64,000 nt of DNA, from the IMG/VR virus record IMGVR_UViG_2880395615_000008. One strand, 5' to 3'. The stretch's first letter is position 1; every line of letters starts with the position of its first letter. The position numbers are program-made. The DNA is from a virus (lineage: Duplodnaviria > Heunggongvirae > Uroviricota > Caudoviricetes). Shown here in pieces: positions 22,601 to 25,600 of this stretch.

Positions 22601-25600
22601 GTTCAGTTGTATCCGGTTCCACTGCTTCAGTCGTTGCCTGTTCATCTGCCATTGCGCCAGATGGCTGCGGTTTTTCTTCATCATCCTGTTTTCCTTCTTT
22701 TGTTACACGCTGCGGCATTGGAGCAGAGGAGCGACCGCAGGCAATATCCACGATTTCTGGATCAGGGTTGGCATGGTCGGTTTCGGTCAGTACTTTGTTC
22801 AGATATTCGGTAACACGGTGGGGAGTAGCCTCGATACCAATTGGTGCTTCTTTCACGGACGCAACCACTATCGCGCGGGAATAATCCAGGTGACCAGGCA
22901 TGGCGATGAATTTGTCACGAAAAACAGAAAAGGGCGGCTTATTATCTGAAACGATTTCTTCAATGCGTTTGGCGTGTGCCGGATGTGGATTGTAAATATC
23001 GATGTCCATTGAACGGGCCAGAACGCCAGCGGCAACGTCACGTTCCACTGACGCATCATCGTGGACAAAACCTTCACCGCGATCGGTAAGAATTCCTCCG
23101 CCAGCATTAGCGCCGGATGGCGTGCGGCTGATGCGTAAAACACGATTTCCTTTCATCCACTCTTTTGTCAGCAGACCTCGATCGGTATAGTCAGCGTCCA
23201 GGTATGCTTCGAAAAAAGCAGTCATTAACCCCAGACTGGAATTAACGGGATTAGGGAAAACTTTGTCTGTGTCGCGTACCAGTTTGTGAAGGTCGCGAAT
23301 CTCCAGCGGGTCGAGCAGCTTTGTGTTGTGGGAAATAGCCAGGGCAGTAACAGCAGGCAGTTCTTCAGCTCGTGCGATATGTAATGCCTGAAGTTCTTCC
23401 CGTGAAACGTGCGTTACCGGTTTTTCGCTGCCATGTTGCGCAAGCCAGCGAATGGGCAGTTCCTGACCGGAAATCGGCAGGAGCATATTATCCTCAATCT
23501 CAGCCATGTCTTCGCCATTGACGTTGGTATTGTCAGTGCTGGCTGGTTTGTCCTGAACTGAGGGGGAAGGCGCTATAAATATCATTGTGATGCCATCTTC
23601 TCCGCCTTTTTCATAGCGGTTGCAGAATTCAGTATCGAACACACCTTCAGGCGGCAGGTCATTAACAATGGGCAAATTCACGCGAACAGGTTTTTTGAAA
23701 TCCTCTTCGTCAAATCCAGCATCGTCCATTGCGACAACACCCCGTGATATTGCAACCGATAATTTTTTTGCTGTGCGCCAGTAAAAACCGCCTTTAATCC
23801 CAAGGCGTTTTCTGACTTTGTCATTTTTGGCTTCGTAATACAGTGCAATTTCTTCTTTATCAGTGCTCATTGATAAACCTCATAACTATTTTAAGGTTGT
23901 ACGAATCCCTGCTATTGCTGGCATGCTTAATCAACGGGTATGGCGTTAATACGGCTGGCGGGTTATCCAGCCGGTATTTCGTTATTCAGGTACAGCGATA
24001 CTTTGTTTAACGGGAGACATTCACCGGAAATTTTTTGCTCGTCTCTTGCCTGATGGCAGGATTCTTTACTGGCATAAATTCCGGTAATCACATTCTGTGG
24101 CTCACCTGTTATAAGAAAAACCGTCATCATCAGTGCAAACGCTGAACTCACTGCTGCCCTCCGAAAATGCCAAGTTCAAGAAGGGCAATTCTGGAGAGTA
24201 TGGAATTATCATTGAGAAGATAAGGCTCATATTTTCTCATCCTGATGGCGTCTTCAGTAAACTCCCGGTTACTGAGCAGAATACCAATATTAAAACACCC
24301 TTCAGACGTATTAACGTTTGGTAGTGACGTTTCCATTATCGCGTCCTCAACAATGAATTTTGTGATGCGGTGCCTGGTGCCTCCAGGTGACGTTAACCAG
24401 TTAACAATTAACGCCGGATACAGAGAATCCACCCATAACACTGTTTTTGGTTTTAACTGTTCCGCGTGCGCTGAGCCGCATTCACCGCATCACAAAATTC
24501 ACTTTAAAAAGGGCGGCAGAGCAGCCACGGAGTAAAACTGATACCGCCAAACGTCACCAGAAAACTGATAACAGAGGGCGTTGCAGTGGGGTTGTCACTT
24601 AAGCGTATGGTCAACCTGACAACCCGGCGTCCTCAAGGGGGAACAGAATAACCCCGCCACACTTACCGCCGCGCCATTTCGCGGATTGCCACAACCGGAA
24701 GCGCACGGTCGAACTAAATTTAACGACACCGTACAGAGAGACCAATTTCGCCGTGCGCTTTCGTGTTATGCCCTGACTTTTCAGGGAAAGAGCCTTTCAG
24801 TAAACTGTCAGTACCGGATTCTTATCCGTGTCCGGCGCACGACCACACGTGACAGCGTGTTGGTCTCCATTTTTAACCCAGCCCTTAATGGAGGATAAAA
24901 TGCACTCTAAATCAATCAATCGATATTATGTCCATGTGCAGTTATTTGAAGCAACAATGGAACAGGAGAAAAAGTTCGAGACTCTGATGCCAAATTTTAA
25001 ATACTCCAGGATGATTAATGAAGGTGACATTGAATATAAATTATTGCCAGGGGCATACGTTATTCAGTCAACGCTTAATGCGAATCAAATACTTGAACAA
25101 ACCTTTTCTATTGCTAATTCAGTTGGTGCTAATGCTCACATTTTTGTTTGCCCTTATGATGAAAGTGCAACCCTTTTGCCTTGTGCTGATTTTAGCACTT
25201 ACTAACTAAATTTAATTTATGTTCAAGTTCGGCTATTTGCATACGTAGTGCTTTAACCATTGTTTCATGATAAATCTCACTCACTCCACCTGGGTGTGGG
25301 GTGAATTTAGGTGAATCATCTTTGTTTTCAGAACTCAGATTCTCTTCGTACAGCTTAATAAAGGAATTACGCACATTATGGGATATATTGTCGATGGTTT
25401 CTTTTTCTACGGTACTCAGGTCAAGAGTCGCCAGTTGGGAACGAACTATATTCGCTGCCATTTCCTGGAATTGCATTGGTAAATCTTTAAATTCCATCGT
25501 CAACCTCATCAGTCAGTGTTTCTGGCTAACCAGCGACGCGCGCCAGCTTCAGTTTTAAACGTTTTGCTTCTGGTATACGTCATCGCGGTAAACGTGCCGT

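What the first reader, a model, noticed from the sequence alone, without database searches (positions are those of the whole stretch)
24564..25205. GC-rich structured spacer plus an AT-rich oppositely oriented ORF next to the immunity region
Between DicF and the next early genes lies about 330 bp with no ORF but several hairpins, followed by a 101-aa gene (24900..25205) on the opposite strand with a strong SD and low GC, converging on and overlapping gene 25192..25509. Oppositely oriented AT-rich genes beside the repressor are where lambdoid phages carry exclusion genes such as rexAB or sieB, so this is the best single-gene candidate here for an undescribed host-protection function.
Basis: inference. 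Interest (0 to 1): 0.55.

Follow-up and report, generated by a model that had tools for sequence, protein, structure and literature searches.

The report
YmfI-family prophage gene beside DicF leader
The "spacer" is the already known untranslated leader of the DicF small RNA, and the opposite-strand ORF is a real but uncharacterised prophage gene of the YmfI family, whose predicted fold resembles the antitoxin RNase GhoS and which sits in the slot where the Rac prophage carries its exclusion gene sieB.

Summary
Positions 24564-24899 are non-coding, 52-57% GC and hairpin-rich. Positions 24900-25205(+) hold a 36%-GC ORF with a GGAGGA ribosome-binding site that overlaps the gene at 25192-25509(-) by 14 nt.

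The spacer is not new. It is about 90% identical to the ydfC-dicF untranslated region of K-12 Qin, which is the DicF precursor leader, and 4413 of 5426 E. coli genomes carry it.

The ORF is a real gene under purifying selection. It is a divergent member of the named but uncharacterised YmfI family (e14 prophage, 55% identity).

New here:
- It lies in a cargo hotspot equivalent to the sieB slot of Rac. At least five unrelated ORFs share its 5' flank up to the ATG.
- It always travels with a YmfJ-type C-terminal domain on the converging early-left gene (43 of 43 loci).

A lysogen-state accessory role is plausible but untested. No promoter was found for the window's copy. It is a new member of a known kind, of moderate interest.

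The parts
24511..24562 (-). DicF small RNA (context; the 3' end of the leader described below)
   Evidence: Rfam RF00039, 75 bits, gathering score 48, full model 1-52. Its own terminator-like hairpin lies at 24528-24513.
24563..24841 (-). DicF precursor leader, homologous to the ydfC-dicF untranslated region of K-12 Qin. It carries several hairpins, including a long stem between about 24700-24714 and 24746-24760.
   Evidence: About 90% identical to Qin. 94 unique variants were found in IMG/VR prophages, and all share at least the 220 nt next to DicF. Part of the 1071-nt query occurs in 4413 of 5426 E. coli genomes. Fold z-scores are -2.6 and -4.0. [quoted passage not shown]
24842..24899 (+). 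Conserved 5' flank of the cargo slot. Hairpin 1 is 24842-24849 paired with 24856-24864. Hairpin 2 is CTCCATT (24865-24871) paired with AATGGAG (24887-24893), which would occlude the GGAGGA ribosome-binding site at 24890-24895.
   Evidence: The flank is shared at 88-100% identity, up to and including the ATG, by at least five unrelated + strand ORFs in phiP27 and IMG/VR prophages. The arms of hairpin 2 are identical in all 8 variants while its loop varies. Both hairpins are predicted in the + strand fold. Their function is inferred, not shown.
24900..25205 (+). 101-aa gene, a divergent YmfI-family protein with a GhoS-like ferredoxin fold
25192..25305 (-). YmfJ-type C-terminal domain (TPxP..VSxxYHxTMVKALRxxIxxL) of the converging 105-aa gene. 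It is the constant companion of YmfI genes.
   Evidence: BLASTP against the e14 YmfJ C-terminus gives 47% identity, E = 4e-8. All 43 IMG/VR loci retrieved through this motif alone carry a converging YmfI gene. The motif is fused to at least two unrelated N-terminal domain types.
25192..25509 (-). 105-aa early-left gene (PGAP start at 25497). Its N-terminal 'MEFKDLP' domain is shared with the partners of other cargoes.
   Evidence: phrog_6937, phrog_1363 and others match residues 5-69 only. The N-terminal domain is conserved in L083, L126 and L091, which have different C-termini.
24903..25453 (.). Swappable cassette: the cargo ORF plus most of the converging gene
   Evidence: Homology with other DicF prophages stops at 24841-24903 on the left and resumes at 25340-25528 on the right.
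25736..25808 (-). Early-left (dicB-operon-type) promoter-like site at 25764-25736, and the bidirectional terminator-like hairpin at 25793-25808 after the repressor gene (context)
   Evidence: TTGACA-17-AACAAT, 10 of 12 matches, and the hairpin. No terminator-like site was found on either strand between 24562 and 25793.

Best explanation
The finding joins two different things.

(1) Positions 24563-24841 are the leader of the DicF precursor on the - strand. This part is shown. The leader is made when the leftward early (dicB-type) operon is transcribed from the promoter-like site near 25750. DicF is cut out of it, by RNase E according to the literature.

(2) Positions 24900-25205 hold a real protein-coding gene of the YmfI family. 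It encodes a small, soluble, acidic protein whose predicted fold is that of the type V antitoxin endoribonuclease GhoS. This part is also shown. The gene is the cargo of a recombination hotspot that corresponds to the sieB slot of Rac. It forms a conserved convergent two-gene module with the YmfJ-type C-terminal domain of the early-left gene it overlaps.

The mechanism is inferred, not shown. The YmfI-type protein is probably made independently of the early-left promoter, in the lysogenic state. There it would carry out an accessory, lysogen-protecting activity, by binding or cutting RNA like GhoS or by binding a protein. On induction, the early-left operon is transcribed through the gene in antisense. 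That transcription would shut the cargo gene down by convergent transcription, and it would deliver the YmfJ-type domain as the protein's cognate partner or antagonist. The activity would then be on in the lysogen and off during the prophage's own lytic growth.
For: - Leader: about 90% identity to the Qin ydfC-dicF region, an adjacent Rfam DicF hit, and the literature.
- Real gene: PGAP calls it. Synonymous sites are saturated while pN is 0.2-0.4 across genera. An in-frame 3-nt deletion and conservative changes are seen in the 96.6% variant.
- YmfI family.
- sieB slot.
- Hotspot with a shared 5' flank.
- Obligate pairing with the YmfJ-C domain: 43 of 43 loci, with different N-terminal domains.
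- Independent expression in relatives: e14-type genes keep a roughly 45-nt upstream block containing TTCACC-16 nt-TGgTATGCT across genera and immunity types. K-12 ymfI is reported as down-regulated under several stresses, which implies basal expression (PMC9501238).
- Switch at induction: ymfJ RNA and YmfJ protein rise strongly after SOS induction (PMC11002266). ymfI-ymfJ and sieB-ydaF are both listed as convergent excludons from RNA-seq (PMC12288877).
- No terminator-like site separates the cargo gene from the early-left promoter on either strand.
Against: - No promoter was found for the window's copy. The only + strand match (24873-24901) overlaps the start codon, and the conserved e14-type promoter block is absent.
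- The ribosome-binding site may be sequestered in a hairpin.
- The GhoS link rests mainly on fold. A profile-profile comparison of YmfI with GhoS is not significant.
- The Arg28 reported as most important for GhoS activity aligns with Glu27.
- The protein is acidic (pI 5.2).
- There is no GhoT-like toxin in the window.
- PADLOC has no match.
- One lineage (L018) keeps YmfI while its YmfJ-like partner has decayed.
- The pairing could reflect physical linkage between fixed recombination points rather than function.
- No paper in the library assigns any function to YmfI.
Confidence: 0.45

Rival explanations
1. Type V antitoxin-like safety catch. The protein is a GhoS-like RNase made in the lysogen that destroys leaky early-left transcripts. 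In this prophage those transcripts carry DicF, DicB and YdfD, all harmful to the host. It would thus protect the lysogen from its own prophage rather than from other phages.
For: - The GhoS-like fold, given that GhoS acts by cutting the mRNA of its toxin (PMC4010927).
- The gene sits between the early-left promoter and the division inhibitors here (DicF, DicB) and next to KilR in L018.
- ymfI shows basal expression in K-12.
Against: - Arg28 of GhoS is not conserved, and the YmfI-GhoS profile comparison is not significant.
- Unrelated small ORFs replace the gene in the same slot of otherwise similar DicF prophages. That is hard to reconcile with a housekeeping role for the dicBF operon.
- In e14 and L015 no known toxin lies downstream.
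- No GhoT-type partner is present.
Confidence: 0.15
2. The transcript, not the protein, is the main actor. Convergent transcription of the cargo gene runs antisense through the 105-aa and DUF1391 genes, up to the terminator at 25793-25808. It would dampen the early-left promoter and DicF/DicB expression, as in an excludon, and the protein's function would be secondary.
For: - The two genes overlap by 14 nt at their 3' ends, and no terminator-like site lies on either strand between 24562 and 25793.
- ymfI-ymfJ and sieB-ydaF are listed as excludons in K-12.
- Very different cargo ORFs occupy the slot in the same orientation.
Against: - The protein is under purifying selection across genera and keeps a confident fold.
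- The YmfJ-C domain is conserved as protein and is always paired with YmfI. Pure transcriptional interference does not need that.
- No promoter was found here.
Confidence: 0.12
3. A lytic-cycle or counter-defence protein. A small acidic protein binds and inhibits a host or rival-phage protein, in the way Ral/Lar-type or anti-restriction proteins of the same genome region do. It would be expressed during infection rather than in the lysogen.
For: - The protein is acidic and soluble, with pI 4.6-6.6 across most of the family.
- It lies in the non-essential early-left accessory region.
- The putative RNase residue is lost.
- The ribosome-binding site may be held in a hairpin that needs an activating event.
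Against: - It lies on the strand opposite to the early-left operon, so it cannot use that promoter.
- e14-type copies have their own conserved promoter-like block, and K-12 ymfI shows basal expression.
- No member of the family was found in 50,697 sequenced phage records.
Confidence: 0.15
4. A decaying passenger. In this prophage the ORF has been cut off from its promoter by recombination at the ATG and is silent, kept only because the insertion is recent.
For: - The e14-type promoter block is missing and no promoter was found.
- dN/dS within the window's subfamily is 0.4-0.7 on few substitutions.
- A frameshifted variant exists (P0004).
- PGAP leaves the ORF unannotated in most of the 96.6% variants.
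Against: - The ORF is intact in all three diverged versions examined (window, L002, L004), including an in-frame indel.
- The 5' flank, with its strong ribosome-binding site, is conserved in front of five different cargoes. That argues the flank is a working expression signal.
- 64 genomes carry the ORF.
Confidence: 0.1

Closest known systems
YmfI of E. coli K-12 cryptic prophage e14 (NCBIfam NF051477, 'YmfI family phage protein'; phrog_8894)
   Same: - Homologous over the full length (55% identity, E = 2e-37).
- Same size class.
- Same arrangement: on the opposite strand, converging on and overlapping a YmfJ-type gene next to the prophage repressor.
   Different: - It scores below NCBIfam's equivalog cut-off (107 against 140 bits).
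- It lacks the C-terminal tail of e14 YmfI and the conserved e14-type upstream block.
- It is fused instead to a 5' flank shared with unrelated cargo genes at the end of the DicF leader.
- It is rare: 64 of 5426 genomes, against 848 for the e14 type.
- YmfI itself has no known function.
GhoS (YjdK), type V antitoxin endoribonuclease of E. coli (PDB 2llz; Pfam PF11080)
   Same: - Best structural match by two methods, covering 91 of 100 residues.
- Similar size and acidity.
- A slot-mate protein in the same PHROG reaches Pfam's GhoS threshold.
   Different: - No significant direct sequence or profile match.
- Arg28 is replaced by Glu.
- There is no co-directional GhoT membrane toxin.
- The neighbour is a converging early-left gene.
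- It is prophage-borne rather than a chromosomal ghoST operon.
sieB of Rac (and the P22/lambda sieB and lambda rexAB exclusion genes)
   Same: - Same genomic slot and orientation as Rac sieB: between the DUF1391 gene and an sRNA plus division-inhibitor pair, converging on the DUF1391-side gene.
- Both gene pairs are listed as excludons in K-12.
   Different: - No sequence or family relationship.
- SieB is a larger inner-membrane protein (from my own knowledge), whereas this one is soluble.
- Exclusion activity has not been tested.
ydfC-dicF untranslated region of the dicBF operon (Qin)
   Same: The spacer is its homologue at about 90% identity and lies directly 5' of DicF on the same strand.
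   Different: Upstream of it, ydfB and ydfC are replaced by the 105-aa gene plus the opposite-strand cargo gene. The early-left transcript must therefore cross the cargo gene in antisense before it reaches the leader.

Membership tests
YmfI family phage protein (NCBIfam NF051477) | Score at or above the curated equivalog cut-off (140 bits) | tested here: not met
   107.1 bits, E = 4.9e-31, covering profile positions 2-89 of 89. This makes it a clear homologue but a divergent subfamily.
YmfI family phage protein (NCBIfam NF051477) | Full-length colinear homology to e14 YmfI | tested here: met
   BLASTP gives 55% identity over residues 6-96, E = 2e-37. The alignment of 15 members has 17 invariant columns.
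YmfI family phage protein (NCBIfam NF051477) | Context: opposite strand, converging on a YmfJ-type gene beside the prophage repressor | tested here: met
   Seen in e14, the window, Scandinavium and Edwardsiella, L004, L015 and L016, and 43 of 43 IMG/VR loci.
GhoS / type V toxin-antitoxin (Pfam PF11080) | Match to the Pfam GhoS model at its gathering score | tested here: not met
   The window protein has no hit at E up to 10. One of 15 relatives hits at E = 0.041. A slot-mate in the same PHROG passes (21.2 against 21 bits).
GhoS / type V toxin-antitoxin (Pfam PF11080) | GhoS fold (ferredoxin-like beta-alpha-beta-beta-beta-alpha-beta) | tested here: met
GhoS / type V toxin-antitoxin (Pfam PF11080) | Arg28, reported as the residue most important for RNase activity (PMC4010927) | tested here: not met
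   It aligns with Glu27, which is Glu in most YmfI members (MAFFT alignment). The alignment is sequence-based and approximate.
GhoS / type V toxin-antitoxin (Pfam PF11080) | Adjacent co-transcribed GhoT-type membrane toxin | tested here: not met
   tblastn of GhoT against the whole window gives nothing better than E = 1.4. The hydrophobic +1-frame ORF at 25018-25209 is not conserved in relatives.
GhoS / type V toxin-antitoxin (Pfam PF11080) | Sequence-specific endoribonuclease activity | not testable with these tools
   This needs an in vitro cleavage assay.
Superinfection exclusion genes (sieB, rexAB) | Homology to SieB or Rex proteins | tested here: not met
   No Pfam or PADLOC family matches. 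The protein is soluble and acidic.
Superinfection exclusion genes (sieB, rexAB) | Position and orientation of an exclusion gene beside the immunity region | tested here: met
   The slot is equivalent to that of sieB in Rac.
Superinfection exclusion genes (sieB, rexAB) | Blocks growth of superinfecting phages | not testable with these tools
   This needs a phage challenge of a strain expressing the gene.
Known anti-phage defence systems (PADLOC-DB 2.0) | Match to any defence-protein model | tested here: not met
   The only match is a chance-level Cas7b hit at E = 0.055. There is none for the partner or for two relatives.
DicF precursor leader (dicBF operon UTR) | Homology to the Qin ydfC-dicF region, lying directly 5' of DicF | tested here: met
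   There are 94 unique variants in IMG/VR.
DicF precursor leader (dicBF operon UTR) | Processing by RNase E (and RNase III) to release DicF | not testable with these tools
   Known for Qin from the literature, not for this copy.
Excludon (convergent overlapping transcription units) | Convergent genes with overlapping 3' ends and no terminator between them | tested here: met
   The overlap is 14 nt, and no terminator-like site lies on either strand between 24562 and 25793.
Excludon (convergent overlapping transcription units) | Overlapping antisense transcripts observed | not testable with these tools
   Reported only for the K-12 homologous pair ymfI-ymfJ (PMC12288877).

The most novel reading that the evidence does not exclude
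YmfI plus the YmfJ-type C-terminal domain may be a previously unrecognised two-gene prophage module. A GhoS-fold effector made in the lysogen would act against incoming phages, or against the prophage's own toxic early RNA. The converging early-left gene would deliver the cognate neutralising domain at induction. That would be a convergent, lysogeny/lysis-toggled relative of type V toxin-antitoxin systems, sitting in a swappable hotspot at the end of the DicF leader.
Probability: 0.15. Interest if true: 0.7.

Novelty: new member of a known kind. Interest (0 to 1): 0.4.

Why it matters
YmfI is a gene of unknown function in E. coli K-12. Sequence of the e14-type gene occurs in about 16% of complete E. 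coli genomes, and nothing is known about what it does. This work gives it three concrete, testable leads:
- a GhoS-like fold;
- an obligate converging partner domain;
- a position equivalent to sieB, in a hotspot with interchangeable cargo.

If the module proves to be protective, it would add a compact system to the accessory genes that sit beside prophage immunity regions. It would also extend the type V antitoxin fold beyond ghoST. In Shiga-toxin-producing strains such as this one there is a further point: a gene transcribed against the operon that makes DicF and DicB could tune those regulators of cell division and virulence.

Tried and rejected
- A hidden GhoT-like toxin. The +1-frame ORF at 25018-25209 (63 aa, hydrophobic) is interrupted in L004, e14, L009 and L012, and tblastn of GhoT finds nothing. 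Rejected.
- A coding spacer. The 70-aa TTG ORF at 24686-24898, which ends 1 nt before the ATG, is not kept in frame in L126 or L091, and the leader alignments have 1-3-nt indels. Rejected.
- A longer protein starting at GTG 24828 (125 aa, as in cluster P0001 and phiP27 L09). The peptide it would add is not conserved where hairpin 1 is inverted (L083). In addition, e14-type homologues start at the position equivalent to the ATG. Rejected.
- Multi-repeat hits P0009 and P0010 from the exhaustive search. These are repeat-driven chance matches to a short 'LxPGxYVI' stretch.
- hhalign of the YmfI profile against GhoS, both as a single sequence and as a shallow alignment, gave no signal.
- The profile search of PDB sequences found nothing significant.
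- Foldseek against viral structures found nothing at E of 0.001 or better.
- The afdb50 library was not available.
- tblastn against 50,697 phage records gave no match. Two small 'plasmids' carry e14-type copies.
- The promoter scan found no usable + strand promoter for the window's gene. A proposed resemblance between its flank (ACCAC-N12-GTTGGT) and the e14-type block was too weak to claim.
- The original GhoS paper (Wang et al. 2012) is not held, so the residue information comes second-hand from PMC4010927.
- One literature search was wasted on an ambiguous term.
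Full report
**Where the window comes from.** The region is identical to a lambdoid prophage integrated at ompW in E. coli O157:H7 strain 611 and ten other complete genomes. Around the finding, the - strand carries a leftward early operon of the dicB type:
- an HTH repressor at 25830-26219;
- a terminator-like hairpin at 25793-25808;
- a promoter-like site at 25764-25736;
- a DUF1391 (YdfA-like) gene;
- a 105-aa gene at 25192-25509;
- DicF at 24511-24562 (Rfam, 75 bits);
- dicB, a DUF1482 (YdfD-like) gene, an exonuclease, xis and int.

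**Checking the observation.** Everything described is present.
- Positions 24564-24899 have only short ORFs that are not conserved. GC is 52-57%, against 35-37% over the ORF. The stretch folds more stably than all 100 shuffles on either strand, with z = -2.6 and -4.0.
- The ORF at 24900-25205 is on the + strand. It has GGAGGA six bases before its ATG, and it overlaps the 3' end of the 105-aa gene by 14 nt.
- PGAP annotates it as a hypothetical protein, WP_000555741.1.

**The spacer.** Its reverse complement aligns at about 90% identity with the 340-bp region between ydfC and dicF in the Qin prophage of K-12. The alignment runs from DicF up to window position about 24841.
- Part of the 1071-nt query, mainly this leader and DicF, is found in 4413 of 5426 complete E. 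coli genomes.
- A scan of IMG/VR for the DicF core returned 94 unique leaders. All share at least the 220 nt next to DicF, and most share about 280 nt.
- Rfam has no family for the leader.
- The structured, GC-rich spacer is therefore a known element, not a new one.

**The ORF is a real gene of the YmfI family.**
- A first word-indexed search found only four near-identical clusters.
- The exhaustive search and a profile search then found relatives at 39-60% identity, which sources name 'YmfI family phage protein'.
- NCBIfam NF051477 matches at E = 4.9e-31, at 107 bits, below its equivalog cut-off of 140. phrog_8894 matches at E = 1.5e-35. Identity to e14 YmfI of K-12 is 55% (E = 2e-37).
- Between subfamilies, synonymous sites are saturated (pS 0.8-0.9) while pN is 0.2-0.4. 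Within the window's subfamily dN/dS is 0.4-0.7 on few changes, and the one indel is in frame.
- The window's subfamily occurs in 64 of 5426 complete genomes, mostly Shiga-toxin-producing strains. It is left unannotated in most of the 96.6% variants, because a stop-codon change there extends the - strand gene.
- Sequence of the e14 type is in 848 genomes.
- No copy was found in 50,697 sequenced phage records.

**Fold.**
- AlphaFold2 on a 15-sequence alignment gives a confident model (pLDDT 82.9, pTM 0.72) with the order beta-alpha-beta-beta-beta-alpha-beta.
- Foldseek agrees, with GhoS at E = 7.3e-4 and TM 0.70 both ways, and every other hit at TM 0.54 or less.
- Direct sequence evidence is weak. 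There is no Pfam hit for the window protein, one of 15 relatives hits Pfam GhoS at E = 0.041, and hhalign against GhoS is not significant.
- A bridging sequence turned up by chance. A 94-aa ORF in the same slot of another prophage (L099) matches phrog_8894 at E = 5.6e-23, reaches Pfam's GhoS gathering score (21.2 against 21 bits), and aligns end to end with the YmfI profile (hhalign E = 3.7e-5, probability 71%).
- I therefore regard YmfI proteins as GhoS-fold proteins and probably distant relatives of GhoS.
- The functional inference is limited. Arg28, reported as the key residue of GhoS (PMC4010927), aligns with Glu27. The protein is acidic, as GhoS is. No GhoT-like toxin is present.

**The slot.** Rac of K-12 has the order racR(-), ydaG(-), ydaF/DUF1391(-), sieB(+), kilS sRNA(-), kilR(-). 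That is the same layout as the window, with the YmfI-type gene in place of sieB and DicF/DicB in place of KilS/KilR.
- In other DicF prophages the stretch between the leader and the DUF1391 gene holds other contents. Qin and phage Tritos have ydfB-ydfC. Elsewhere there are different opposite-strand ORFs.
- Homology with the window stops exactly at the ATG (24902/24903) in three prophage types and in phiP27. It resumes inside or after the 105-aa gene, at 25340-25528.
- The 58 nt before the ATG (24842-24899) are thus a common 5' flank for at least five unrelated cargo ORFs.
- That flank contains two hairpins. The second pairs CTCCATT with AATGGAG and would hide the ribosome-binding site. Its arms are identical in all eight variants while its loop varies. 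With invariant arms there is no covariation, so the structure is an inference.

**A conserved two-gene module.**
- The last 35 or so residues of the 105-aa gene resemble the C-terminus of e14 YmfJ (47% identity, E = 4e-8).
- The same motif (TPLPC..VSRVYHDTMVKALRIEL) ends the converging partner of YmfI genes in Scandinavium, Edwardsiella and metagenomic prophages. There it is fused to at least two unrelated N-terminal domains.
- I searched IMG/VR with this motif alone. All 43 loci recovered carry a YmfI-family gene converging on it, with 14-77 nt of overlap. These loci represent about six protein clusters, so the count overstates independence.
- Partners of other cargo ORFs keep the N-terminal domain but have other C-termini.
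- One lineage (L018) has YmfI with a decayed partner.

**Expression.**
- e14-type genes keep an upstream block of about 45 nt (TGCCTGTCTTTTCACCACTTCAGGCTCGGTGGTATGCT) across genera and immunity types. It reads as TTCACC, 16 nt, then an extended -10 of TGgTATGCT, and is followed by a hairpin whose stem changes in a compensatory way. Its inverted repeat occurs once in 8 kb of e14 and does not recur in the repressor-cro intergenic region. Together with its conservation across prophages with different repressors, this suggests it is not the immunity operator.
- The window's gene lacks this block, and the scan found no usable promoter.
- For K-12, papers report the following: ymfI among genes down-regulated under several stresses (PMC9501238); strong SOS induction of ymfJ RNA and protein, with late weak induction of ymfI (PMC11002266); and ymfI-ymfJ and sieB-ydaF as convergent excludons (PMC12288877). 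No paper gives a function.

**Interpretation.**
- Shown: the leader identity, the family assignment, the fold, the slot, the hotspot and the pairing.
- Inferred: the protein is made independently of the early-left promoter, acts in the lysogen, and is switched off or neutralised when the early-left operon fires. That operon must cross the gene in antisense to reach DicF, because no terminator-like site intervenes.
- Open: whether the protein's activity is exclusion of other phages, silencing of the prophage's own harmful RNAs, or inhibition of some protein. The rivals are listed with their tests.
Its claims of novelty and of a defence role are not established.

Noticed in passing
L099 (IMG/VR contig IMGVR_UViG_2529292883_000007), the ORF starting at the shared AATGGAGGATAAAATG: A 94-aa protein (MAKFTVRIELRD...) occupies the same slot with the same 5' flank. 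It reaches Pfam's GhoS gathering score and belongs to the same PHROG as the window's protein. Two different GhoS-like families therefore use this slot.
   Followed up: partly
L008 5420-5497 (e14), L009, L012, L015, L018, L151, L161: Upstream of e14-type ymfI genes lies a roughly 45-nt block conserved across genera. It holds an inverted repeat (ACCAC-N9-10-GTGGT) between promoter-like hexamers, followed by a 5'-UTR hairpin whose stem differs between lineages but stays paired (GCTGG/CCAGC, GCTAG/CTAGC, CTTGAATATCC/GGATATTCAAG). It looks like a regulated promoter with an unknown regulator.
   Followed up: partly
window 24842-24864, compared with L004/L005/L083 at the same place: Hairpin 1 of the 5' flank is present in inverted form in some prophages: ACCACACG-tgacag-CGTGTTGGT against ACAACACG-ctgtca-CGTGTGGT. 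The palindrome has flipped while its flanks stayed the same.
   Followed up: no
L002 3664-4044 (strain P15-385) and 51 other genomes: A TAG to TGG change on the + strand (TAA to CAA on the - strand) removes the stop of the - strand gene and extends it by 21 residues across the cargo ORF. PGAP then annotates only the - strand gene, and the intact YmfI-type ORF goes unannotated.
   Followed up: yes
L002 4468-4947; L004 7186-7657: In relatives of this prophage a RelE/RelB or ParE/PaaA2 toxin-antitoxin pair is inserted between the repressor and the DUF1391 gene. This is a second variable slot in the same operon.
   Followed up: no
window 31676-31850, 10412-10534, 36759-36959: Rfam also finds a sok antitoxin RNA (a hok/sok-type locus), isrC and STnc100 elsewhere in the window.
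   Followed up: no
L091, L104, L056, L023, L095 (IMG/VR): In prophages with the Qin-type end of the leader (hairpin CTCCACCTGACCCGTGGAG), another opposite-strand ORF (MDKKQIEALQSIIEKQDE..., 105 aa) follows. Its converging partner carries the domain LKHIIALLLEDAKRLQQLEPNAGTEARI as its C-terminal part. In e14 YmfJ the same domain is N-terminal.
   Followed up: no
H22: Aeromonas phage AP1, MT713136.1, 249906-250029: A 254-kb Aeromonas phage record holds 124 nt that are 96.8% identical to the E. coli DicF region, with no annotation. This could be transfer or contamination.
   Followed up: no
window 24686-24898 (+): A 70-aa TTG ORF runs antisense through the DicF leader and stops (TAA) one base before the cargo ATG. 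It is open in some variants but shifted in others, so it is probably not coding. Its stop position would suit translational coupling if it were real.
   Followed up: partly
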